Virus record (IMG/VR): IMGVR_UViG_3300006341_000010
Coordinates: 2,407 to 66,406 of that record
DNA from: a virus
Length of the DNA: 64,000 nucleotides
Direction: 5' to 3' (one strand)
Made by a program: the position numbers and the translations under genes. This document shows, in pieces, positions 36,187 to 47,904 of the stretch. The notes beneath the pieces are model-generated. The model made no database searches. It was given only the letters and a program-made list of their open reading frames with translations, and was not told the origin of the DNA. Each line of letters opens with the position of its first letter. Position 1 is the first letter of the stretch.

Positions 36187-36263
36187 GTCCTCGTAGCTCA
36201 GATGGATAGAGCGACGGCCTCCTAAGCCGTAGGTCACTGGTTCGAATCCAGTCGGGGACGCCA
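36187..36263 (+). tRNA. tRNA-Arg(CCT)
   Basis: GTCCTCG/CGGGGAC acceptor stem, AGCTCAGATGGATAGAGC D-arm, ACGGC-CTCCTAA-GCCGT anticodon arm, GGTTCGAATCC T-arm, encoded CCA. Confidence 0.95.
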
Positions 36264-40216: not shown

Positions 40217-41137
40217 ATGCCAAATGTTAGATTAGTTTTTGAAGGCGGTCAATCAGGCCGTGACTCAGGTGGTTGCTTTGGGTTCTCAGGTCGTCATGGT
40301 GATTGTCGTACTCGTTTCCGTAACGACTGTGGTGGAGTCCCTGTTACTAACTACATCTATGAGTTTTACAATAGTGTAAGAGGTGATCATTCTGCTGATA
40401 GTGATGCTAAGTTCATGCTTGATTACTTAGCTACCCAGTCACCTTGGCGTAAGTATGTTAATGGATTAAATATTGAACAAGGTAGATTGAACCGTGCAGG
40501 TAATGAAGTAGATATCAAGACAGACATTCCAGGCCATGCTGTGATTGGTACAGCTTCTATGTTCCGTTTTGTAGTTTACTTACACAATGGTAACAAACAC
40601 GTCCTCAAGGCCTTTAAAACTGCATGTGACCTAGGTTGTAATCCTAACATAGCTTTTGTTACTTGTGTCTTAGGTTACGGCTTGAACTCCCAGCCTCAGA
40701 ACTCTGCTTATAGCACTTCGTTGAACGCTTACCCTGATATCGGTGACGACACTCCGTTTGATTTCAGCAGGATTGCTTTGTCAGATTTCCAAGCCATCAT
40801 TGCTGGTACTTGGGAGTACAAAGATAATGATAGTAATCCTTTCCCTAAGTACCGAGACACTGGTCGTTATCAACAAGAGATCTTGAACTCTTTCAGGACT
40901 GGTAATTTCAGTTTCCCTCAGTATGTACAACGTCGTTTCTATCAGAGTGGTAGTTATGTAGCGCCTCGTAGTCAAGGCAGTCGTGGTTTAGGCAGAAGTA
41001 CTAGCCAATCATTAACAGTGCACAACAACCAAGTCTGTATTGAACCTCTATCTCTTATCGGTGTAGCCTTACAGCTAGATGCAGAGGTTAAGAAGTTCGG
41101 GACATTCCAATCAATTAACTTACATCACGGGGTATAA
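40217..41137 (+). CDS. Hypothetical protein heading the peptide-ligase cluster
   Basis: 306 aa, AGGAG SD, TAATG coupling to the GGCT gene. Confidence 0.7.
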   Translation: MPNVRLVFEGGQSGRDSGGCFGFSGRHGDCRTRFRNDCGGVPVTNYIYEFYNSVRGDHSADSDAKFMLDYLATQSPWRKYVNGLNIEQGRLNRAGNEVDIKTDIPGHAVIGTASMFRFVVYLHNGNKHVLKAFKTACDLGCNPNIAFVTCVLGYGLNSQPQNSAYSTSLNAYPDIGDDTPFDFSRIALSDFQAIIAGTWEYKDNDSNPFPKYRDTGRYQQEILNSFRTGNFSFPQYVQRRFYQSGSYVAPRSQGSRGLGRSTSQSLTVHNNQVCIEPLSLIGVALQLDAEVKKFGTFQSINLHHGV

Positions 41138-41547
41138 TGATGTCAGTAACTCCAGCTTCAGTAATGGTAGGTGGCTTATGCTTTGTGTATGGGTCACTCA
41201 GAAAGGGTCTTGGTAACCACCGAGTTATCCAAGGTAGTAAACAACAAGATGATGGCGTGTTACCTAAGGGCTTCAGGATGCGTAGCCTTGGTGGTTTCCC
41301 TGCGATCTTTAAGACCGATGAGGAACATGAAACCCCTATCAAAGTAGAGGTGTATGAGGTAGCTGATAAACCTCAGGCCCAAAGGCTTGATAGTCTTGAG
41401 GGTTATCCTATGTTCTATAACCGTGAGGTTGTTACCCTTGAGGATGGTCGTCAGGGTTGGGTATACTTCATTGAGAATGAGGTAGGTTACTTACGTAATC
41501 AGTTAGTAAGTGATGGTGATTGGTACAAATTTGTAATGGGAGGTTAA
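41137..41547 (+). CDS. Gamma-glutamylcyclotransferase (AIG2/YtfP-like)
   Basis: FVYGSLRKG...NH...LDSLEGYP..YNR...WVYF. Confidence 0.9.
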   Translation: MMSVTPASVMVGGLCFVYGSLRKGLGNHRVIQGSKQQDDGVLPKGFRMRSLGGFPAIFKTDEEHETPIKVEVYEVADKPQAQRLDSLEGYPMFYNREVVTLEDGRQGWVYFIENEVGYLRNQLVSDGDWYKFVMGG

Positions 41548-41967
41548 TTGCAGAAAGATTTAACAACAATCCTCAAACATACAGAAGAATGTAACGGCTG
41601 TATGGTTTGGACAAGGGCTTTAAATACCGATGGGTATCCTCGTGCTTTGATCGAGGGCAACAGTAATGCTAAGGTTCATAGAGTTGTTTATGAACTAGCT
41701 AATGATAAGGACATCTCAGGTTATGTTGTTAGACATACATGTGATGACCCTAAGTGTATTAACCCTAATCACTTAATCATTGGTACTCCTACTGATAATG
41801 TAAGGGATAGATGTGAACGTGGAAGAACACACCATCAAGTCCTTGACGAGGAGAAGGAAGCTGTTAAGGTACTAAGGGAACAGGGTATTACCTACCTTAG
41901 TATAGCCCAGCAGTTAGGTATCTCCTATAAAAGAGTAGAGTACATCGTAAATAAATTTATTAAATAG
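41548..41967 (+). CDS. HNH homing endonuclease
   Basis: C..WT...HRVVYEL...VRHTCDDPKCINPNHLIIGTPTDNVRD; C-terminal HTH. Confidence 0.9.
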   Translation: MQKDLTTILKHTEECNGCMVWTRALNTDGYPRALIEGNSNAKVHRVVYELANDKDISGYVVRHTCDDPKCINPNHLIIGTPTDNVRDRCERGRTHHQVLDEEKEAVKVLREQGITYLSIAQQLGISYKRVEYIVNKFIK

Positions 41968-41993: not shown

Positions 41994-43523
41994 ATTTGTG
42001 GTTTAGTAGGTGTAGCTGGTAACTTAATCCAGCGTGATGTAACTTTGTTTGGTCAGATGCTTTTAGCAGATGTGTTCCGTGGTAAACATGCAACAGGTGT
42101 AATGCGAGTAGCCCATAATGGTCAGGCAATGTCTGTTCAACATGCCAAGTTAGCTATGTCATCAAAGTATTTCTTAGACTTACCTGTGTATGATTTAATC
42201 ACTGGCATTTCTCAATCATTAACAATCCTTGCAGGTCATAACCGCCATGCAACTAAAGGTGCATCAGACAATCATAAGTTTGCTCACCCATTTAAGCATG
42301 GTCACATTACCTTAATGCACAATGGTTCTTTAACTTCTCACTACAACCTAACACGTGGTACTAGTGAAACATTTACAGTAGACAGTGAAGCTATTTGTTT
42401 TGCAATGTCTCGTGGTGAAGCACATGAAGTTATCCCTCAGCTTAACGGTGCCTTTGCTTTAGTGTGGGTTGATGAAGAAAAACAAACCCTTAACTTCGTA
42501 AGAAACTCAGAGCGCCCACTCCACCTAGCATTTGATGAACGCTTAGGTAAGATCTACTGGGCATCAGAAAAAGATATGCTTAAGTGGTTACTTGATCGTG
42601 ACATGACGATGGCATCAGGTGGTTTCCGTTATGATCGTACAGAAGAACTGCCGGTGGGTGAGATCTGGTCTTTCCCAATCAACCAAAATTCTGTAGATCT
42701 TAAGGGCTGCGAGGTGACCTCAGTGGAAGTCTCTAAGCCCTTTACGTACACTGGCTATGGCAATTACGTCGGGGGTACTAACACAAAAAAAAGTCAGGGC
42801 GCAAACAACGCAAGCGCCAGCGCAAACAAGACAAGCGTCACCACAGGAAACTCAAACACCGGTAGTGTTAACAAAACTACTGGGACTAGCACTACTGGTA
42901 ACAGCAGTACTGGAATCCCTTGCCATGCAGCAGTGGATAACAGCGTTGGTACTGAGTACTTGCTTACTCCTAGTCTGGAAACGACTCTGAAAGCTTCATC
43001 TTCTAAGGTGTTAGACCATCTAGGTCGTCAGCAGATTGGTGTTCGCTCTTACATTAATGCCGCTGACCAGCAAGCAACTGAGTTAGATAAGCGAATCCCT
43101 TTCTTCATCAAGAGCTTTGCTGTATATCCATCATCTGTTAACAAAGAACCTGAGAAAATATTGGGTTGTTTGAAAGGGAAGATGGTTGAGTATCCTTTCT
43201 CTGATATTATTATCCATGCTTGTACTAAGATGAAGTTTGATGAGTTGGTAGCTGAAGGTAACTCTATTGGTAGCTCTTACATTCAAGGCATCAAAGCTGA
43301 AGATACAGCTAAGCAGTTAGGTAAGTTGTCTGACTCACAAGCTAAGCTATTGTTTGATGTTGTCCTACGTGGTGATACTATTAAGCAGGTAGAAGAAGTA
43401 ACTAACTACTTGTTTGATATGAATGAGATCCCTTCTTCATGGAAAGTATCTCAAGAACCTGAGGTCGTTAAGGGCATTGAGTTAGTAGTTGAGCAAGAGA
43501 AAGAACTAGCTCAAAAGAAGTAA
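41994..43523 (+). CDS. Class II glutamine amidotransferase (Ntn hydrolase), AUU start
   Basis: ATT-TGT-GGT = (M)CGLVGVAG 8 nt after GGAGG; RGKHATG, GHNRHAT, AHPF, HNGSL, VDSE, GAFALVW, RNSERPL. Confidence 0.9.
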   Translation: MCGLVGVAGNLIQRDVTLFGQMLLADVFRGKHATGVMRVAHNGQAMSVQHAKLAMSSKYFLDLPVYDLITGISQSLTILAGHNRHATKGASDNHKFAHPFKHGHITLMHNGSLTSHYNLTRGTSETFTVDSEAICFAMSRGEAHEVIPQLNGAFALVWVDEEKQTLNFVRNSERPLHLAFDERLGKIYWASEKDMLKWLLDRDMTMASGGFRYDRTEELPVGEIWSFPINQNSVDLKGCEVTSVEVSKPFTYTGYGNYVGGTNTKKSQGANNASASANKTSVTTGNSNTGSVNKTTGTSTTGNSSTGIPCHAAVDNSVGTEYLLTPSLETTLKASSSKVLDHLGRQQIGVRSYINAADQQATELDKRIPFFIKSFAVYPSSVNKEPEKILGCLKGKMVEYPFSDIIIHACTKMKFDELVAEGNSIGSSYIQGIKAEDTAKQLGKLSDSQAKLLFDVVLRGDTIKQVEEVTNYLFDMNEIPSSWKVSQEPEVVKGIELVVEQEKELAQKK

Positions 43524-43677
43524 TAACGATGGGGTATACTGTTGCGAGTGTGATGCACCATTCACCCGTGAAGATGCCCTGTCGTTTGGTATGTACCTAG
43601 ACGGAGATAAGAAAGAATTTATCTGTGACGTCTGTGTATTCTATGAAAAGAATCCTGAGATGGAGAAAAAATTATGA
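43510..43677 (+). CDS. Start-less Zn-ribbon reading frame (possible frameshift extension of GATase)
   Basis: SNNDGVYCCECDAPF...FICDVCVFYEKNPEMEKKL*; stop forms ATGA overlap with next gene. Confidence 0.5.
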   Translation, partial: LKRSNNDGVYCCECDAPFTREDALSFGMYLDGDKKEFICDVCVFYEKNPEMEKKL

Positions 43678-44498
43678 GTACTATCATAGTAGATGGTGTA
43701 GCAGTTGACTTAACTGTTGGGTGTGATCCTGAGCTGTTCGTAAAGGACGAGCAGGGTCTTGTTTCAGCACATGGTATGGTTGAAGGAACTAAAGAAGCTC
43801 CTAGTCCAGTAGAGAAAGGGGCTATCCAAGTTGACGGAATGGCCTTGGAGTTCAACATCAACCCAGCTGAAAGCCGTGAGGTGTTTATCGTTAATACGAT
43901 GTCTGTCATGCAAGACTTAGTAAAGAAAATTCCTCAGGGTCATACCCTAGTAGTAGCCCCAACTGCTAACTTTGGTAAAGCTTTAATTGACCAGCAGCCT
44001 GATGAAGCTAAAGAGCTAGGTTGCTCTGCTGATTACAATGCATACATGCAAGGTGCAGCTAACCCTAAGCCCAACGGCGACGTTGATTTCCGTACGGCGG
44101 GTGGTCATATCCATGTGGGCTTCACTGAGAACGCTCACTCATCAGATCAGGAACACCAAGCTATCTGTCAAGAGATCATTAAGATGATGGACTTAATGCT
44201 CGGTGTTCCTTCAGTCCTTTTAGATGACGACAAGAAACGTCGTAGTCTTTACGGTGCTGCTGGTGCTTACCGCTCTAAGCCTTATGGTGTAGAGTATCGT
44301 TCGCTTAGTAACTTCTGGTTAAAGAGCAAGGAGTACATTGGTTGGGTCTATGACCAGACTGAAGTTACTATCAAGAAAGTCTTGGAAGGTTTAGATGTTT
44401 CGGAAGATGCTGCTAAAATCCAAAGAGTTATTAACAGCTCTGATAAACAAGGAGCTAAAGAACTCATTCGTAAATACAACATTCAGTTACCAGTTTAG
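43674..44498 (+). CDS. phiEco32-like COOH-NH2 ligase type 2
   Basis: VGCDPELFV, QVDGMALEFN, ELGCSADYNAY, RTAGGHIHVG, RRSLYGAAG..R.KPYGVEYRSLSNFW. Confidence 0.9.
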   Translation: MSTIIVDGVAVDLTVGCDPELFVKDEQGLVSAHGMVEGTKEAPSPVEKGAIQVDGMALEFNINPAESREVFIVNTMSVMQDLVKKIPQGHTLVVAPTANFGKALIDQQPDEAKELGCSADYNAYMQGAANPKPNGDVDFRTAGGHIHVGFTENAHSSDQEHQAICQEIIKMMDLMLGVPSVLLDDDKKRRSLYGAAGAYRSKPYGVEYRSLSNFWLKSKEYIGWVYDQTEVTIKKVLEGLDVSEDAAKIQRVINSSDKQGAKELIRKYNIQLPV

Positions 44499-44508
44499 GA
44501 GGAAGATA

Positions 44509-45150
44509 ATGCCTGATATTAATATTAGTTCACGCTACCGTGGTTCAGGTGACATCTCTATGCGTCACAATGATACCTATGTAGGTGTAGTACAACGTGA
44601 TGGTTCGGTTACTCCTTATCGTTGTCATGGTGCTAGTAGCTCAGATAGTATCTCTATCTCTAAGGTCCAAGGGTTCCAAGGGGATAGTGATATGAACATC
44701 GGACTGAATGATGATCGCTTGTTACTTGATCGTCCTCAGTGTGGTTATGCTACCCTAAGGAATGTTGATGGTGATAAGACAGCAGTGTACTTCTGTACTC
44801 GTGCCCTTCGCCAGTACAAACGTTCTTTAGTTTACTCACACCTACATCGTACCCCTGCTGGTAGTGGCCGAGGGGTGGACTATAGTGACCGTGGGAACTT
44901 AGGGGCTGCCTTGTTTACATTCTTCAATGATGTATATTCTTCTGTTGAGAATGCAGTGAATGAACTCAAAGACACTGACGCTGTTTCAATAGCGATTGGT
45001 AGTAAGTTTGCCTTAGCTAAGCATGAAGATAAAGGTATTGTCCTTTACTACAAGCGAGCAATAGTAGGTTGGTATGATCTTGAAGAAGAACAAGTCAAGT
45101 TAGTTAGTAGTTATCAACATCTTCAAGAACAATTAGAGGAGATCTCTTGA
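44509..45150 (+). CDS. Hypothetical protein of the ligase cluster
   Basis: AGGAGG SD places the start at ATG 44509 (MPDINIS). Confidence 0.7.
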   Translation: MPDINISSRYRGSGDISMRHNDTYVGVVQRDGSVTPYRCHGASSSDSISISKVQGFQGDSDMNIGLNDDRLLLDRPQCGYATLRNVDGDKTAVYFCTRALRQYKRSLVYSHLHRTPAGSGRGVDYSDRGNLGAALFTFFNDVYSSVENAVNELKDTDAVSIAIGSKFALAKHEDKGIVLYYKRAIVGWYDLEEEQVKLVSSYQHLQEQLEEIS

Positions 45151-46052
45151 TGTTAGTCAGTGAAATTATTGGACGTAGTTCAGGTGGTTTAGCAGGTGAG
45201 TTGGGCTTAATGGTATCAGGTACTAAGGTAGGGGTAGAGATTGAGATCCAAACAAACTCTAGCTCCCATCCAGTGGATCGCTCAGAGTATTGGCGACCAG
45301 TATCTGAGGGTTCAGTACAGGGCTTTGAGATTGTTCTACGTGAACCTCAAGGCGGTACTGATTTAGTATCAGCTCTTGAGGAAGCTGAATCATTGGTTGA
45401 TAGAATGGGTGGGAATGAGAAGTTCCCTGAGATGACTTCAGTCCATGTCCATGTTGATGTCCGTGACATGACAGAGATCCAGTTGTTTAACTTCCTCACA
45501 TTAGCAATCATGTTCGAGCCTGTGTTATACAATTATGTAGAACCACATCGAAACAAGAACCACTTCTGTTTGCCAATGTCTGATGCTGATGATGTACTTG
45601 GTCGCTTGTATCGTTTGGTATCTCGCTACCGTCAGCATGGTAACATCAACCGTGATCAGTTACGATCTCTATTCTCACCAGATGAAGTTAAGTATGCAGG
45701 TATTAACTTAAGTTCCATCCCGCACTACGGTTCCCTTGAGTTCCGAATGCACCATGGTACTGCAAGTTCTACCGCGTTGATCCGATGGATTAATGTCCTG
45801 TTAAAGATGCATCAGTATGCTATGGAACCTAACCGTTCCCCTAATAACATCCTTGATACTAAGATTGAGGTTGGGATTGAAACAATATTCCAACAAGTCC
45901 TTGGCCAATACTCAGGTGTGTTATCATACGAAGGCGTTGACGATGATATATTAGATGGGATCAGGAATGCACAGGACTTCGTTGCACTGTTCGCTCAGCC
46001 TGCGGGACGTAATGTCCTACAGGATATCCCTAATCAAACCCTAGGAGGATAA
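45147..46052 (+). CDS. Putative amidoligase (COOH-NH2 ligase family)
   Basis: VGVEIEI, EGSV.GFE, TSVHVHVDV, KYAGINL, GSLEFRMHHGT. Confidence 0.88.
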   Translation: MMLVSEIIGRSSGGLAGELGLMVSGTKVGVEIEIQTNSSSHPVDRSEYWRPVSEGSVQGFEIVLREPQGGTDLVSALEEAESLVDRMGGNEKFPEMTSVHVHVDVRDMTEIQLFNFLTLAIMFEPVLYNYVEPHRNKNHFCLPMSDADDVLGRLYRLVSRYRQHGNINRDQLRSLFSPDEVKYAGINLSSIPHYGSLEFRMHHGTASSTALIRWINVLLKMHQYAMEPNRSPNNILDTKIEVGIETIFQQVLGQYSGVLSYEGVDDDILDGIRNAQDFVALFAQPAGRNVLQDIPNQTLGG

Positions 46053-46053
46053 T

Positions 46054-47904
46054 ATGTCTAGGATTTTAATCATGGCACCTCGGGTTTCTGATGGTGCAAG
46101 GGCTTTAGCTGTAAGCTTATCTGAACTTGATGGTGTAGTAGCTCGTTATCGTCGCTTGGACCGAAGGGGTGTAGGCCGTTACAGTAATGTCAACCTAGCT
46201 ATCAACTGGGGCTGTGGGAATGGGGGTGAACCTGTAACCCCTTCTCAGTTCAATGCATTTGGTAGTCATCTGCAAGTGTTAAACCCAAGGACATGGCGAG
46301 CTACTAATAAGCTTATGGCTTTCGAAACTATTAGGCGTTGGAATAGAGACCACTCTAATGATGAACAAATTAACATCCCTGAGTTTTGTACTAGCTTAGG
46401 GGGGGCTCGTGAATGGGCAGGGAATGGTGGTGTATTCTGTAGGACTCAGTTACGTGGTCACTCAGGAACAGACATTGTAGTTGCCCGTCATCCTCGTGAT
46501 ATAGTCGAAGCTCCCTTATACACCAAGCTAGTCAACAAGCGACATGAGTTCCGATTACATGTAGCAGGTGGTCAAGTTATTGATGGTGTAAGGAAGGCCT
46601 TTAGACAAGATGTCCCTGAAAGCCAACGGAACTATGATGTCAGGAACCATGCAGCAGGTTCAGTATTCATCCGTTCAGGTCGTTCATTGTCTTCCTTACA
46701 GATGGATCCTGTAGCTCAAGCAATGGCAGTCAATGCCTGTAGGGCTTTAGGTTTAGACTTCGGTGCAGTTGATATGATGACTGACCAAGAGGGTAACTTC
46801 TATATCCTCGAAGTCAATACGGCTCCGGGTCTTGAGGCTACTACCTTAGCTCGTTACACTGATGCATTCCATAAGATCTCCCGTGGTGAACGCGTTCTAC
46901 GTTGGCAAGATCTTCCACTTAACCCTAACGCAACAACTGAAACACAAACTCAAACTCAAGAAACTAATAGTCAGGAGACTACTATGCCAGCACTAACTCT
47001 ATCAATCCAAACATTACGTAATCACCGTGAAGCACGTCAGGCTCTAGAGGGTCAGACAGTTACACCTACTAATGAATTCCGTGGTTCTACTTTAACAGCA
47101 GGTCGAGCTTATGAAGTCCGCCACTGTACTGTAGGTGACAACGGTCAGGTACGTTTGACTGTCCATAACGATCAAGGACGTGCCCAACGTTACACTTTGA
47201 ACACCAATAACTTCCGATTAGGTGGTCAATCAGCAGCCCCTCAGCTGCCTGAAGCTCAGGCTAACAACGAAGTAGATACATCACTACCTGTTGATTCACC
47301 TTTACGTTGTGTACGTTTACAGGATGGCAGTCAGGTAAACGTAGGTGGTCAGGCTCAGTTCAATCTAAGCAATAGCCGATTCCTAAGCCAAGATACCCCA
47401 TACACTGTTGCTGAGATCCGAGTTGGTTCTGAGACTGGTACTGCATTCTTAGGTATTAATGTTGAAGGTCGAGTCCGTCGCTGGCGTTTAGATTCTTTCT
47501 CTAATGGTGAGCGTGTAGCAGCAACAGCTCAAGCTACTACCTCTAACTCTAGTAGTCAGAATCGACCTAGTGAATCCCTTCAGACCTCAACAGGACAACG
47601 AGTTGAAGTGGGTACGCTAGTACGAGTTAATAGCAGAAACGGTAACCACGGTATCCGAGTAGGTACTTCAGGTACTGTTCGATCTATTAATGTGAGCAAT
47701 GGTACTTTAGTGATTGAAGGTCAGACTCGTGCTATCAATGTACGTCGAGTTGAAGTAGTTACTCCTGAGCAGGTTCAGCAAGAGAACCAAATCCGTGAGC
47801 AACAAAACAATACAGTGAGTGTTTCATTTGCTGGTACGAACTACCGAATCCGTAGTCGTGACCAACAACAAGTACAAACATTACTTAACCAATTAACTGT
47901 GTAA
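46054..47904 (+). CDS. ATP-grasp ligase with C-terminal repeated small beta (SH3/KOW-like) domains
   Basis: INWG, ATNKL, GHSG.DIV, LYTK..KRHEFRLHV, LGLDFGAVD, ILEVNTAPGL. Confidence 0.88.
   Translation: MSRILIMAPRVSDGARALAVSLSELDGVVARYRRLDRRGVGRYSNVNLAINWGCGNGGEPVTPSQFNAFGSHLQVLNPRTWRATNKLMAFETIRRWNRDHSNDEQINIPEFCTSLGGAREWAGNGGVFCRTQLRGHSGTDIVVARHPRDIVEAPLYTKLVNKRHEFRLHVAGGQVIDGVRKAFRQDVPESQRNYDVRNHAAGSVFIRSGRSLSSLQMDPVAQAMAVNACRALGLDFGAVDMMTDQEGNFYILEVNTAPGLEATTLARYTDAFHKISRGERVLRWQDLPLNPNATTETQTQTQETNSQETTMPALTLSIQTLRNHREARQALEGQTVTPTNEFRGSTLTAGRAYEVRHCTVGDNGQVRLTVHNDQGRAQRYTLNTNNFRLGGQSAAPQLPEAQANNEVDTSLPVDSPLRCVRLQDGSQVNVGGQAQFNLSNSRFLSQDTPYTVAEIRVGSETGTAFLGINVEGRVRRWRLDSFSNGERVAATAQATTSNSSSQNRPSESLQTSTGQRVEVGTLVRVNSRNGNHGIRVGTSGTVRSINVSNGTLVIEGQTRAINVRRVEVVTPEQVQQENQIREQQNNTVSVSFAGTNYRIRSRDQQQVQTLLNQLTV

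What the first reader, a model, noticed from the sequence alone, without database searches (positions are those of the whole stretch)
42771..42865. dnaX-like -1 ribosomal frameshift signal in the GATase gene giving a highly basic tail
Seen: just after the Ntn domain there is an SD-like GGGGG (42771-75), then ~10 nt later an in-frame slippery heptamer A_AAA_AAA (42785-91, in an A8 run), then a GGCGC/GCGCC hairpin starting 6 nt downstream (42798-42818). The -1 frame reads KSGRKQRKRQRKQDKRHHRKLKHR* (TAG 42863-65), while the 0 frame is a low-complexity linker with atypical C-ending codons, as expected for dual coding. Established: internal SD + slippery heptamer + hairpin is the bacterial -1 PRF architecture. 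Inference: a ~290-aa GATase with a nucleic-acid- or membrane-binding tail is made alongside the 509-aa form, and the ratio could sense tRNA-Lys.
Basis: partly seen in the sequence, partly recalled or inferred. Interest (0 to 1): 0.78.

Follow-up and report, generated by a model that had tools for sequence, protein, structure and literature searches.

The report
Conserved frameshift site in phage amidotransferase
A marine phage enzyme gene keeps a run of eight A's, preceded by a ribosome-binding-like motif, exactly at the junction between its two domains, and distant relatives keep the same signal, so some ribosomes very probably slip back one base and make a short, enzyme-domain-only protein beside the full-length one.

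Summary
GGGGG lies at 42771-75, an in-frame A_AAA_AAA inside an A8 run at 42785-92, and a 5-bp GGCGC/GCGCC hairpin at 42798-42818. The -1 frame ends at TAG 42863-65 after a 26-codon basic tail.

It is more than chance. This is the only in-frame A_AAA_AAR heptamer among 56 Lys-Lys pairs in the window's 51 long ORFs, and 52 of those pairs start with AAG.

Three homologues at about 50% protein identity keep an A8 in the same phase and place. A 41% homologue has A_AAA_AAG there. All five have GGRGG(T) 9-15 nt upstream, built with rare GGR Gly codons or AGG, and it is the only or one of two such motifs in each gene. In all five the -1 frame stops within 8-26 codons, just after the folded GATase domain.

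Best reading: a dnaX-like programmed -1 frameshift makes a GATase-only isoform of about 290 aa (confidence 0.6).

Not conserved: the long basic tail and the hairpin. Open points: a share of transcriptional slippage on A8, and an oddly open +1 frame.

A second, start-less Zn-ribbon junction lies at the gene's 3' end. This scan noted a similar site before in a crAss-like phage amidotransferase (e1-6020886, unchecked). Searches of print found none.

The parts
41994..43523 (+). Gene for a 509-aa two-domain protein: class II (Ntn) glutamine amidotransferase domain, disordered linker, conserved C-terminal domain. It probably starts at ATT 41994, directly before the catalytic Cys codon.
   Evidence: Translation. 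Pfam GATase_6 58.6 bits (cut-off 27) and GATase_7 36.9 bits (cut-off 25). phrog_4736 E 2e-78. AF2 model mean pLDDT 82. The frame upstream of ATT holds no ATG/GTG/TTG back to TAA 41961, and GGAGGA lies 7 nt before ATT.
41997..42743 (+). GATase / Ntn hydrolase domain (aa 2-250)
   Evidence: VIA-align Z 24.0, rmsd 2.4, 210 residues aligned to the GlmS glutaminase domain 1xff_A, model range 2-245. pLDDT is mostly above 85.
42750..42920 (+). Disordered Ser/Thr/Asn/Gly-rich linker (aa 253-309); the recoding signal sits at its start
   Evidence: pLDDT below 50 for residues 253-309. The linker varies in length and sequence among homologues.
42771..42776 (+). Internal Shine-Dalgarno-like GGGGGT (codons GGG GGT of a conserved Gly-Gly), 9 nt before the heptamer
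   Evidence: It is the only GGRGG in the gene. The same motif lies 14-15 nt upstream of the heptamer in the 4 other loci. The first Gly uses rare GGG/GGA, whereas the other conserved Gly-Gly is GGT GGT.
42785..42792 (+). A8 run holding the in-frame slippery heptamer A_AAA_AAA (42785-42791); 0-frame codons ACA AAA AAA AGT
   Evidence: It is the only in-frame A_AAA_AAR in 51 ORFs of the window. An A8 in the same phase is kept in L019, L002 and L021, and A_AAA_AAG in L022.
42798..42818 (+). Predicted hairpin GGCGC / 11-nt loop / GCGCC, starting 6 nt after the heptamer; a second 4-bp hairpin follows at 42820-42838
   Evidence: MFE fold. It is in the best 2-5% of positions of the gene at 30-45 nt. 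It is weak and not conserved as a structure.
42785..42865 (+). -1 frame tail of 26 codons (17 of them Lys/Arg/His) ending at TAG 42863-65. The shifted product would be 264 + 26 = 290 aa.
   Evidence: It is longer than under synonymous resampling (P = 0.008) in this window only.
42921..43520 (+). C-terminal domain (aa 310-509), which the shifted product lacks. It is confined to this phage clade and its fold is not identified.
   Evidence: pLDDT about 90 in the full-length model. There is only a weak OB/S1-like resemblance, Z 4.3-4.7. tblastn of this part hits 1 phage record of 50,697.
43510..43677 (+). Zn-ribbon ORF (CxxC...CxxC) in the +1 frame with no start codon, overlapping the gene's end (CAA AAG AAG TAA). 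It is a probable second recoding junction of the same gene.
   Evidence: There is no canonical start before the first Cys in 6 of 7 loci. The ribbon is fused in frame in L016, P0017 and P0021.

Best explanation
The A-run is a programmed -1 ribosomal frameshift site of the dnaX type.

Proposed mechanism:
- Ribosomes translate the GATase gene with the two Lys-tRNAs on AAA AAA (42786-91).
- They are held back by pairing of the anti-SD of 16S rRNA with GGGGGT, 9 nt upstream. The small GC hairpin 6 nt downstream may add to this.
- A fraction of ribosomes slip back one base onto A_AAA_AAA and read KKK... in the -1 frame.
- These ribosomes stop at TAG 42863-65.

The result is a ~290-aa protein: the complete Ntn-glutaminase domain plus a short tail. 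It is made from the same mRNA as the 509-aa protein, which also carries the linker and the clade-specific C-terminal domain. By analogy with dnaX tau/gamma, the short form would be a catalytic module freed from whatever the C-terminal domain binds in the phage's peptide-ligase cluster (GGCT, COOH-NH2 ligase, amidoligase, ATP-grasp).

Shown: the signal, its rarity in this genome, and its retention in relatives.
Inferred: that ribosomes shift, the ratio of products, and the role of the short form.
For: (1) Anatomy. The in-frame X_XXY_YYZ heptamer, SD-like motif, hairpin and early -1 stop are all present.

(2) The genome avoids such sites. Of 56 KK dipeptides in 51 ORFs, 52 begin with AAG, and only this one is A_AAA_AAR. 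It is the only coding A/T run of 7 or more.

(3) Retention.
- Window, L019, L002 and L021 (49-54% protein identity) all have NNA AAA AAA AGY.
- The preceding residue varies (Thr, Thr, Gly, Ile) but its third base stays A. L022 (41%) has GTA AAA AAG.
- The 8 other KK dipeptides in these five genes all start with AAG.
- The A-run is the only contiguous invariant block in a 126-column DNA alignment.
- On a quick tree the A8 proteins form one clade (SH-aLRT 99) with tip branches of 0.26-0.6 changes per site, so synonymous sites should be saturated.

(4) SD-like motif. GGRGG occurs 1-2 times per gene, and in 5 of 5 genes one copy lies 9-15 nt before the heptamer. The background chance is 0.008-0.017 per gene. 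It is built from GGG/GGA GGT or GGG AGG, whereas the other conserved Gly-Gly is GGT GGT in 4 of 4. A review passage gives 9-14 nt as the spacing for SD-like stimulators of -1 shifts. It also calls them a major feature of dnaX and of about 56% of IS elements (PMC5009743, passages read).

(5) L022's A6G is too short for RNA-polymerase slippage, but it is the classical ribosomal heptamer (review passage).

(6) The site lies about 12 residues after the last strand of the GATase fold, at the start of the disordered linker. The short product is therefore a whole domain.

(7) The -1 frame stops after 8-26 codons in 5 of 5 loci.

(8) A stem starts 6-9 nt after the heptamer in 4 of 5 loci.
Against: - There are no RNA, ribosome-profiling or protein data. 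No RNA run holds the sequence.
- A_AAA_AAA is much less shift-prone than A_AAA_AAG in E. coli (PMC5009743 passage), yet 4 of the 5 loci use it.
- Downstream structures differ in every locus and are weak to moderate. Own-gene percentiles are 0.02-0.28 for the window, 0.03-0.19 for L019, 0.02-0.47 for L002 and 0.09-0.15 for L021. L022 has none.
- Measured from the last G, the SD spacing is 15 nt in three loci, 1 nt beyond the 9-14 nt quoted.
- The four A8 loci are one clade, so this is retention of one origin plus one sister lineage, not many independent origins.
- 4 of the 9 loci that reach the C-terminal domain (L001, L023, L016, L005) have no Lys heptamer there. The signal is therefore dispensable for the family.
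- Gly-Gly and Lys-Lys-Ser could be kept partly as residues.
- The exact conservation of the 8th A, and a +1 frame kept open only in the A8 loci, fit polymerase slippage better than ribosomal slippage.
Confidence: 0.6

Rival explanations
1. The recoding is real but is mainly transcriptional. RNA polymerase slips on the A8 template run and makes A9 mRNAs (-1 frame: short basic-tailed GATase) and A7 mRNAs (+1 frame: GATase with a hydrophobic tail of 40-67 residues), as in Thermus dnaX or A-run IS elements.
For: - The run length is exactly 8 in 4 of 4 loci of the clade. The eighth A is kept by Ser AGY rather than the commoner TCN codons (AGY is 30% of Ser codons window-wide), although the heptamer does not need it.
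- Baranov et al. report IS elements with 8 As in place of 9 and suggest that slippage is productive on eight As in some organisms (PMC1088944, passages read).
- The +1 frame after the run is open for 40-67 codons in the four A8 loci. The longest +1 open stretch of each gene exceeds whole-gene synonymous permutation with P = 0.008, 0.074, 0.033 and 0.057, against 0.93, 0.87, 0.73 and 0.16 in four loci without A8.
Against: - Efficient bacterial slippage is documented for runs of 9 (review passages).
- L022 has only A6G and its +1 frame stops after 3 codons.
- An SD-like motif at -1-stimulating distance has no role in polymerase slippage, yet it is kept in 5 of 5 loci.
- No consistent hairpin abuts the run upstream.
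- The +1 frame's hydrophobicity follows from the ACT/AGT/GGT codons of the linker. The +1 test was thought of after seeing the data.
Confidence: 0.15
2. There is no programmed recoding. The Gly-Gly...Lys-Lys-Ser stretch is kept for the protein or for translation kinetics, for example an SD-like plus poly-A pause at the domain boundary that helps the GATase domain fold. Alternatively, the A8 is a mutable DNA tract tolerated in a linker, and any shifted product is noise.
For: - GG and KKS are also conserved as residues in P0001 and P0003-P0006.
- The -1 tails are neither conserved in sequence nor, outside the window, longer than expected.
- 4 of 9 related loci do without the heptamer.
- The hairpins are weak.
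- There is no expression evidence.
Against: - Residue-level conservation does not explain the rare GGG/GGA codon in 4 of 4 loci and AGG in L022.
- It does not explain AAA AAA in 4 of 4 genes that otherwise write Lys-Lys as AAG-AAR (8 of 8 other pairs).
- It does not explain the conserved third-position A of a varying preceding residue.
- L023 keeps AGG AGG (Arg-Arg) at the homologous place, so the nucleotide motif is kept while the residues change.
- The phage avoids such runs everywhere else.
- A pause signal made of exactly the elements that cause -1 shifting would itself cause shifting.
Confidence: 0.2

Closest known systems
E. coli dnaX tau/gamma programmed -1 frameshift (A_AAA_AAG, upstream SD-like stimulator, downstream stem-loop)
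   Same: - A Lys-Lys heptamer, and an internal SD-like motif at -1-stimulating distance.
- A stem beginning a few nt downstream.
- A -1 frame that stops early, so the shifted product is a truncated protein lacking the C-terminal domains (review passages).
   Different: - 4 of 5 loci use A_AAA_AAA(A), a weaker heptamer in E. coli.
- The stem is short (5 bp here) and not conserved.
- The tail is 8-26 codons rather than one.
- The gene is a phage Ntn amidotransferase, unrelated to dnaX.
- Nothing is shown experimentally.
Thermus thermophilus dnaX and A-run IS elements: transcriptional slippage on A9 (or A8)
   Same: A homopolymeric A run inside a gene gives a shorter product through mRNAs with extra As (PMC1088944 and PMC5009743 passages).
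   Different: - The run is 8, not 9, and a sister lineage has only A6G.
- An SD-like element accompanies the run.
- In Thermus both alternative frames stop nearby. Here the +1 frame stays open for 40-67 codons.
IS3/IS911/IS1 orfA-orfB and phage tail-chaperone G/GT -1 frameshifts
   Same: They use A_AAA_AAR-type or similar heptamers. IS elements often have an upstream SD (about 56%; review passage). Heptamers are conserved across divergent phages.
   Different: There the shift lengthens the product by fusing two ORFs, whereas at 42785 it shortens it. The IS-like arrangement does apply to the gene's 3' end in Slicky01, where A_AAA_AAG TAG is followed by a start-less Zn ribbon in the -1 frame.
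   Same: The same enzyme class, the same place (the linker between two domains), and the same predicted outcome (an enzyme-only short form).
   Different: It is an AI note whose sequences I could not see or test.
Class II (Ntn) glutamine amidotransferases GlmS/PurF/AsnB, and the phage peptide-ligase clusters with GAT-II, GGCT, COOH-NH2 ligase, amidoligase and ATP-grasp (Iyer et al. 2009, recalled, not read here)
   Same: An N-terminal Cys, Pfam GATase_6/7 matches, and Z 24 to the GlmS glutaminase domain. The neighbouring genes match that cluster.
   Different: The C-terminal partner domain is not a known synthase domain. Recoding has not been described for these genes in the papers searched.

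Membership tests
dnaX-type programmed -1 ribosomal frameshift cassette | Slippery heptamer X_XXY_YYZ in the 0 frame | tested here: met
   A_AAA_AAA at 42785-91 with codons ACA AAA AAA. The same is found in L019, L002 and L021, and A_AAA_AAG in L022.
dnaX-type programmed -1 ribosomal frameshift cassette | SD-like sequence about 9-14 nt 5' of the shift site | tested here: met
   GGRGG(T) lies 9 nt (window), 14 nt (L022) or 15 nt (L019, L002, L021) before the heptamer, counted from the last G. Counting the following T, each is one less. The motif occurs only 1-2 times per gene. The spacing rule is from PMC5009743.
dnaX-type programmed -1 ribosomal frameshift cassette | Stable stem-loop or pseudoknot 5-9 nt 3' of the heptamer | tested here: inconclusive
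   Stems start 6-9 nt downstream in 4 of 5 loci. They are short or bulged, differ in sequence, and are only moderately unusual: z = -1.76, -0.18, -3.23, -2.25 and +0.20. L022 has none.
dnaX-type programmed -1 ribosomal frameshift cassette | The -1 frame gives a defined alternative product, and the signal is conserved among homologues | tested here: met
   The -1 frame stops after 8-26 codons in 5 of 5 loci. The signal is kept at 41-54% protein identity.
dnaX-type programmed -1 ribosomal frameshift cassette | Shifted protein demonstrated, and dependent on the heptamer and stimulators | not testable with these tools
   No RNA holder is listed. There is no proteomics and no reporter assay.
Programmed transcriptional slippage site | Homopolymeric A/T run long enough for RNAP realignment (9 in the documented bacterial cases; 8 suggested for some) | tested here: inconclusive
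   A8 in 4 loci and A6G in L022. Thresholds are from the passages.
Programmed transcriptional slippage site | mRNA population with a variable number of As | not testable with these tools
   Only DNA contigs were available. Contigs of X1 and X2 (possible sources of this DNA) show A8 without indel.
Class II (Ntn) glutamine amidotransferase domain | Catalytic Cys as the first residue after the initiator, and the GATase class II fold | tested here: met
   TGT directly follows the ATT start. Pfam GATase_6 and GATase_7 are above their cut-offs. Z 24.0 to 1xff_A over 210 residues. Cys2 is invariant in 12 of 12 aligned sequences.
Class II (Ntn) glutamine amidotransferase domain | Fused or partnered synthase/acceptor domain that uses the ammonia | tested here: inconclusive
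   The C-terminal domain has no Pfam hit and no Atlas feature hit. There are only weak OB/S1-like structural rows, Z 4.3-4.7.

The most novel reading that the evidence does not exclude
The gene is a recoding hub that turns one mRNA into a nested set of three or four proteins, using Lys-codon slip sites at both domain junctions:
- GATase alone (-1 at the A8).
- GATase-linker-CTD (standard decoding).
- GATase-CTD-Zn ribbon, by a +1/-2 event at AA_AAG_AAG_TAA. In Slicky01 this would be a -1 event at A_AAA_AAG_TAG, and in L023 at A_AAG_TAG.
- In the A8 lineage, perhaps also a GATase with a hydrophobic +1-frame tail, made from A7 transcripts.

The stoichiometry of the phage's peptide-ligase machinery would then be set by slippage on Lys codons rather than by separate genes.
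Probability: 0.25. Interest if true: 0.82.

Novelty: new member of a known kind. Interest (0 to 1): 0.62.

Why it matters
- Conserved, productively used -1 frameshifts in bacteria and phages are few outside dnaX, IS elements and tail chaperones. A new one in an enzyme gene, kept across more than one substitution per amino-acid site, adds a case where recoding separates a catalytic domain from its targeting domain.
- It matters for annotation. Gene callers list one 488-492-aa protein, miss the ATT start, and leave the Zn ribbon unannotated.
- It matters for the unsolved function of the GATase/GGCT/amidoligase/ATP-grasp clusters that are widespread in phages. The cluster may need a free glutaminase as well as a tethered one.
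- Together with the 3' junction and the earlier crAss-like note, it suggests that phage class II amidotransferases use recoding repeatedly at domain boundaries.

Tried and rejected
- Closer relatives. Loci came from the search for related loci instead. Extra viral scans with P0006 and P0033 gave no new clade member. DNA for P0005, P0006, P0010, P0011, P0014 and P0033 therefore stays unseen; they show Lys-Lys at the same place only at protein level.
- Expression. No RNA holder is listed. Contigs of X4 and X5 do not cover the A-run. X1 and X2 may be the source of this DNA and only confirm A8.
- C-terminal domain. There is no Pfam hit and no usable Atlas feature hit, with structure rows below TM 0.5. 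A PDB profile search gave only weak myomesin rows, E 0.005 or worse, which I take as chance. The CTD-only AF2 model was poor, at pLDDT 52. The VIA wide search gave only OB/S1-like rows at Z 4.3-4.7. The fold is left open.
- Internal initiation at the SD-like motif was rejected. No ATG/GTG/TTG follows it in any of the five loci.
- Stem-loop-driven polymerase slippage. No consistent hairpin abuts the run upstream.
- I first dismissed the open, hydrophobic +1 frame as a by-product of the linker's composition. The hydrophobicity is, but the openness exceeds synonymous resampling in the A8 loci only. It is kept as unexplained.
- 'Basic tail conserved' was rejected. The tails are 8-26 codons, L022's is not basic, and only the window's is longer than expected.
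- Distant homologues. In 28 loci, 6 of 20 Lys-Lys pairs in the 70 residues after the GATase core are A_AAA_AAR, against 6 of 66 elsewhere (Fisher one-sided P = 0.028). This is suggestive only, and their upstream motifs are inconsistent.
- Paper searches for recoding in these genes, for the cluster and for Slicky01 gave nothing on this point. Supplements were not consulted.
- The tree is the quick one; the careful search did not finish.
Full report
**What is there.**
The window is 64 kb of a 66,406-bp virus record rated complete. At 41994-43523 (+) lies a gene whose product (509 aa, P0001) begins ATT-TGT. The frame is closed 11 codons upstream, holds no ATG/GTG/TTG, and GGAGGA lies 7 nt before the ATT. 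ATT is therefore the likely start, placing the catalytic Cys first.
- GGGGG at 42771-75.
- An A8 run at 42785-92 read ACA AAA AAA AGT in frame, so A_AAA_AAA is a proper X_XXY_YYZ heptamer.
- GGCGC/GCGCC (42798-802 / 42814-18, 11-nt loop), starting 6 nt after the heptamer.
- A -1 frame of 26 codons, KKKSGRKQRKRQRKQDKRHHRKLKHR, ending at TAG 42863-65.

**The gene.**
- Pfam finds GATase_6 (58.6 bits, cut-off 27) and GATase_7 (36.9 bits, cut-off 25) in residues 74-196 and nothing further on.
- An AlphaFold2 model from a 32-sequence alignment (mean pLDDT 82.4) shows three parts: a well-folded N-terminal domain to about residue 250, a disordered stretch at 253-309 (pLDDT below 50), and a second well-folded domain at 310-509.
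- The first domain matches the GlmS glutaminase domain with Z 24.0, rmsd 2.4 over 210 residues.
- The second domain has only weak OB/S1-like rows (Z 4.3-4.7), no Atlas feature hit, and one tblastn hit among 50,697 phage records (Slicky01).
- The neighbours are GGCT (41137-41547), an inserted HNH endonuclease (41548-41967), COOH-NH2 ligase (43674-44498), amidoligase (45147-46052) and an ATP-grasp protein (46054-47904).
- The heptamer codes residues 265-266, about 12 residues after the last strand of the GATase fold. A -1 shift would therefore give the whole GATase domain plus a tail: 264 + 26 = 290 aa.

**Is it chance?**
A single A8 in 64 kb of 29% A would not be surprising on composition alone, but this genome avoids such runs.
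- There are only two A/T runs of 7 or more. The other is intergenic.
- In 51 ORFs of at least 100 aa there are 56 Lys-Lys dipeptides. 52 start with AAG, although AAG is only 56% of Lys codons. Exactly one is an in-frame A_AAA_AAR: this site.

**Relatives.**
- No close relative exists in the collections. The best non-self proteins are 48-52% identical by BLASTP and 49-54% in the alignment.
- DNA was obtained for nine loci whose match reaches the C-terminal domain: the window, L019, L002 (the same contig as L020 and L042), L021, L022, L001 (Slicky01), L023, L016 and the partial L005.
- In L019, L002 and L021 the linker begins with an A8 run in the same codon phase: ACA AAA AAA AGT, GGA AAA AAA AGC, ATA AAA AAA AGT.
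- In L022 (41%) it begins with GTA AAA AAG, the classical A_AAA_AAG.
- The residue before the lysines differs (Thr, Thr, Gly, Ile, Val), but its third base is always A.
- The eight other Lys-Lys pairs in these five genes all start with AAG.
- In a DNA alignment of the region, the A-run is the only contiguous invariant block.
- On a quick maximum-likelihood tree the A8-bearing proteins form one clade (SH-aLRT 99) with tip branches of 0.26-0.6 changes per amino-acid site. The L022 group (P0012, P0010, P0014, all with Lys-Lys there) is a sister lineage. The Slicky01 pair, inside the same larger clade, lacks the site.
- L001, L023, L016 and L005 have no Lys heptamer at the junction.
- So the count is 5 of 9 loci, in two lineages, with at least one loss or a second gain.

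**The upstream motif.**
- GGRGG occurs only once or twice in each of the five genes. In all five, one copy lies 9 nt (window), 14 nt (L022) or 15 nt (L019, L002, L021) before the heptamer. The chance of that per gene is 0.008-0.017.
- It is always followed by T, which extends the match to the SD consensus by one base.
- It is written with the rare codons GGG or GGA for the first Gly. GGR is 12-41% of Gly codons in these genes. The other conserved Gly-Gly of the protein is GGT GGT in 4 of 4.
- In L022 the residues are Gly-Arg (GGG AGG). In L023, which has no heptamer, they are Arg-Arg (AGG AGG). The nucleotide motif therefore outlasts the residues.
- The review by Atkins et al. (passages read) gives 9-14 nt as the distance at which SD-like sequences stimulate -1 shifts. 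It calls them a major feature of dnaX and of an estimated 56% of IS elements.

**Downstream structure.**
- A stem begins 6-9 nt after the heptamer in 4 of 5 loci, but each one is different. The window has 5 bp, L019 has 6 bp with an 11-nt loop, L002 has a long hairpin (z = -3.2), L021 has a bulged stem, and L022 has none.
- Against all positions of the same gene, the window's site is in the best 2% (30 nt) and 5% (45 nt), but only 28% at 60 nt. The other loci range from 2% to 47%, and L022 is worse than average.
- I count this as compatible with a stimulator, not as evidence on its own.

**The tail.**
- The window's 24 overlapped 0-frame codons end in C 13 times, against 16.5% window-wide (binomial 3e-5).
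- The -1 ORF is longer than in 99.2% of synonymous resamplings.
- The other four tails (8, 9, 14, 16 codons) are of ordinary length (P = 0.71, 0.33, 0.28, 0.91). L022's is not basic.
- What is conserved is an early stop, that is, a truncated protein. A particular tail is not conserved.
- The local GC richness may serve either the hairpins or a lineage-specific tail.

**Ribosome or polymerase?**
For the ribosome:
- the SD-like motif;
- the canonical A6G heptamer in the sister lineage, which is too short for polymerase slippage;
- the absence of an upstream hairpin abutting the run.

For the polymerase:
- The run is exactly eight in four deeply diverged loci, and the eighth A is kept through the minority Ser codons AGY.
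- A_AAA_AAA is a much weaker ribosomal shifter than A_AAA_AAG in E. coli.
- Eight As have been proposed to suffice for slippage in some organisms.
- The +1 frame behind the run is open for 40-67 codons in the A8 loci. Whole-gene synonymous permutation gives P = 0.008, 0.074, 0.033 and 0.057 for them, against 0.93, 0.87, 0.73 and 0.16 for four loci without A8. This test was devised after seeing the data, and the hydrophobic character of that frame follows from the linker's codons, so it stays an unexplained observation.

I put ribosomal -1 frameshifting first (0.6), mainly-transcriptional slippage second (0.15), and no programmed recoding third (0.2).

**Likely role (inference).**
As with dnaX tau and gamma, one mRNA would give a full-length protein, whose C-terminal domain presumably docks it to a partner or substrate of the ligase cluster, and a free catalytic domain. 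Most distant phage homologues share only the GATase domain with this protein; tblastn matches typically cover residues 1-236 to 1-248. This shows that the domain works in other contexts. The phage carries only tRNA-Arg(CCU), so Lys decoding is the host's. The idea that the ratio senses tRNA-Lys was not tested.

**Second junction.**
- The gene ends CAA AAG AAG TAA.
- A Zn-ribbon ORF (43510-43677) opens four codons before the stop, in the +1 frame, and has no start or near-cognate codon before its first Cys.
- The same holds in L002, L021 and L022 (no canonical start; only near-cognate codons in L021 and L022). Only L019 has ATG.
- In Slicky01 the ribbon is in the -1 frame directly behind A_AAA_AAG TAG. 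In L023 it lies behind A_AAG TAG. In L016, P0017 and P0021 it is fused in frame.
The comparison made here supports it and suggests that this gene family uses Lys-codon slippage at both domain junctions.

**Known or new.**
- Full-text searches for frameshifting together with glutamine amidotransferase and phage returned no paper on such a site (listings only). Searches on the cluster and on Slicky01 added nothing.
- This scan holds an earlier, unchecked note of a similar -1 site in the linker of a crAss-like phage amidotransferase (e1-6020886).
- In 28 more distant loci, slippery Lys-Lys encodings are enriched just after the GATase core: 6 of 20 against 6 of 66, P = 0.028.
- The mechanism is a known kind. 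The gene family and the two-junction arrangement are new.

**Limits.**
- There are five loci and two lineages, with no relative closer than about 50%.
- There are no RNA or protein data.
- The tree is a quick one.
- The spacing and shiftiness rules come from E. coli, and the host is unknown.
- The Iyer et al. 2009 description of the cluster is recalled, not read.

Noticed in passing
window 43510-43677 (and L002, L019, L021, L022, L001, L023): A Zn-ribbon ORF has no start codon and overlaps the end of the GATase gene (AA_AAG_AAG_TAA; +1 frame). There is no canonical start before the first Cys in 6 of 7 loci. In Slicky01 it sits in the -1 frame behind A_AAA_AAG TAG, in L023 behind A_AAG TAG, and it is fused in frame in L016, P0017 and P0021. 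It is a probable second recoding junction.
   Followed up: partly
window 41994-41999: The gene appears to start at ATT (SD GGAGGA 7 nt upstream, no other start in the open frame), directly before the catalytic Cys. A roughly 95%-identical contig of run X5 reads ATG at that place (loose end). Homologues L008, L011, L040, P0009 and P0040 also read Ile-Cys there. The gene caller's version (P0002, 488 aa) starts 21 codons too late and lacks the nucleophile.
   Followed up: partly
window 42757-42990, +1 frame: The +1 frame behind the A8 is open for 67 codons (91 counting upstream) and is hydrophobic. It is the longest +1 open stretch of the gene in all four A8 loci, and longer than synonymous permutation gives (P = 0.008-0.074). 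This is not so in four loci without A8. It is unexplained, and could be a third product from A7 transcripts.
   Followed up: partly
window 41548-41967: An HNH endonuclease gene is inserted between the GGCT and GATase genes. In L002 the GGCT gene ends 25 nt before the GATase start, with no such insert, and in L001 the preceding annotated CDS ends 23 nt before it.
   Followed up: no
L023 2757-2762; window 36187-36263: L023 has tandem rare Arg codons AGG AGG (a perfect SD) at the place of the Gly-Gly motif but no slippery heptamer after it. The window's only tRNA is tRNA-Arg(CCU), which reads AGG. Any link was not examined.
   Followed up: no
L011 3705, L013 3732, L029 705, L036 2816 and 2831, L031 1290: More distant GATase homologues carry in-frame A_AAA_AAG/A just after the GATase core, with -1 frames of 8-24 codons. 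Relative to the rest of these genes this is an enrichment: 6 of 20 against 6 of 66 Lys-Lys pairs, P = 0.028.
   Followed up: partly
window 46399-46405: A G7 run lies inside the ATP-grasp gene and is the only other homopolymer of 7 or more in coding sequence. It starts at codon position 1, so it is not an in-frame X_XXY_YYZ heptamer (phase worked out from the ORF start).
   Followed up: no
proteins P0009, P0019, P0024, P0025, P0027 (no DNA seen): At the place of Lys-Lys, these clade members have a conserved Gly-Lys preceded by Gly-Gly or Arg-Gly. That could hide G_GGA_AAG-type heptamers. It could not be checked without DNA.
   Followed up: no
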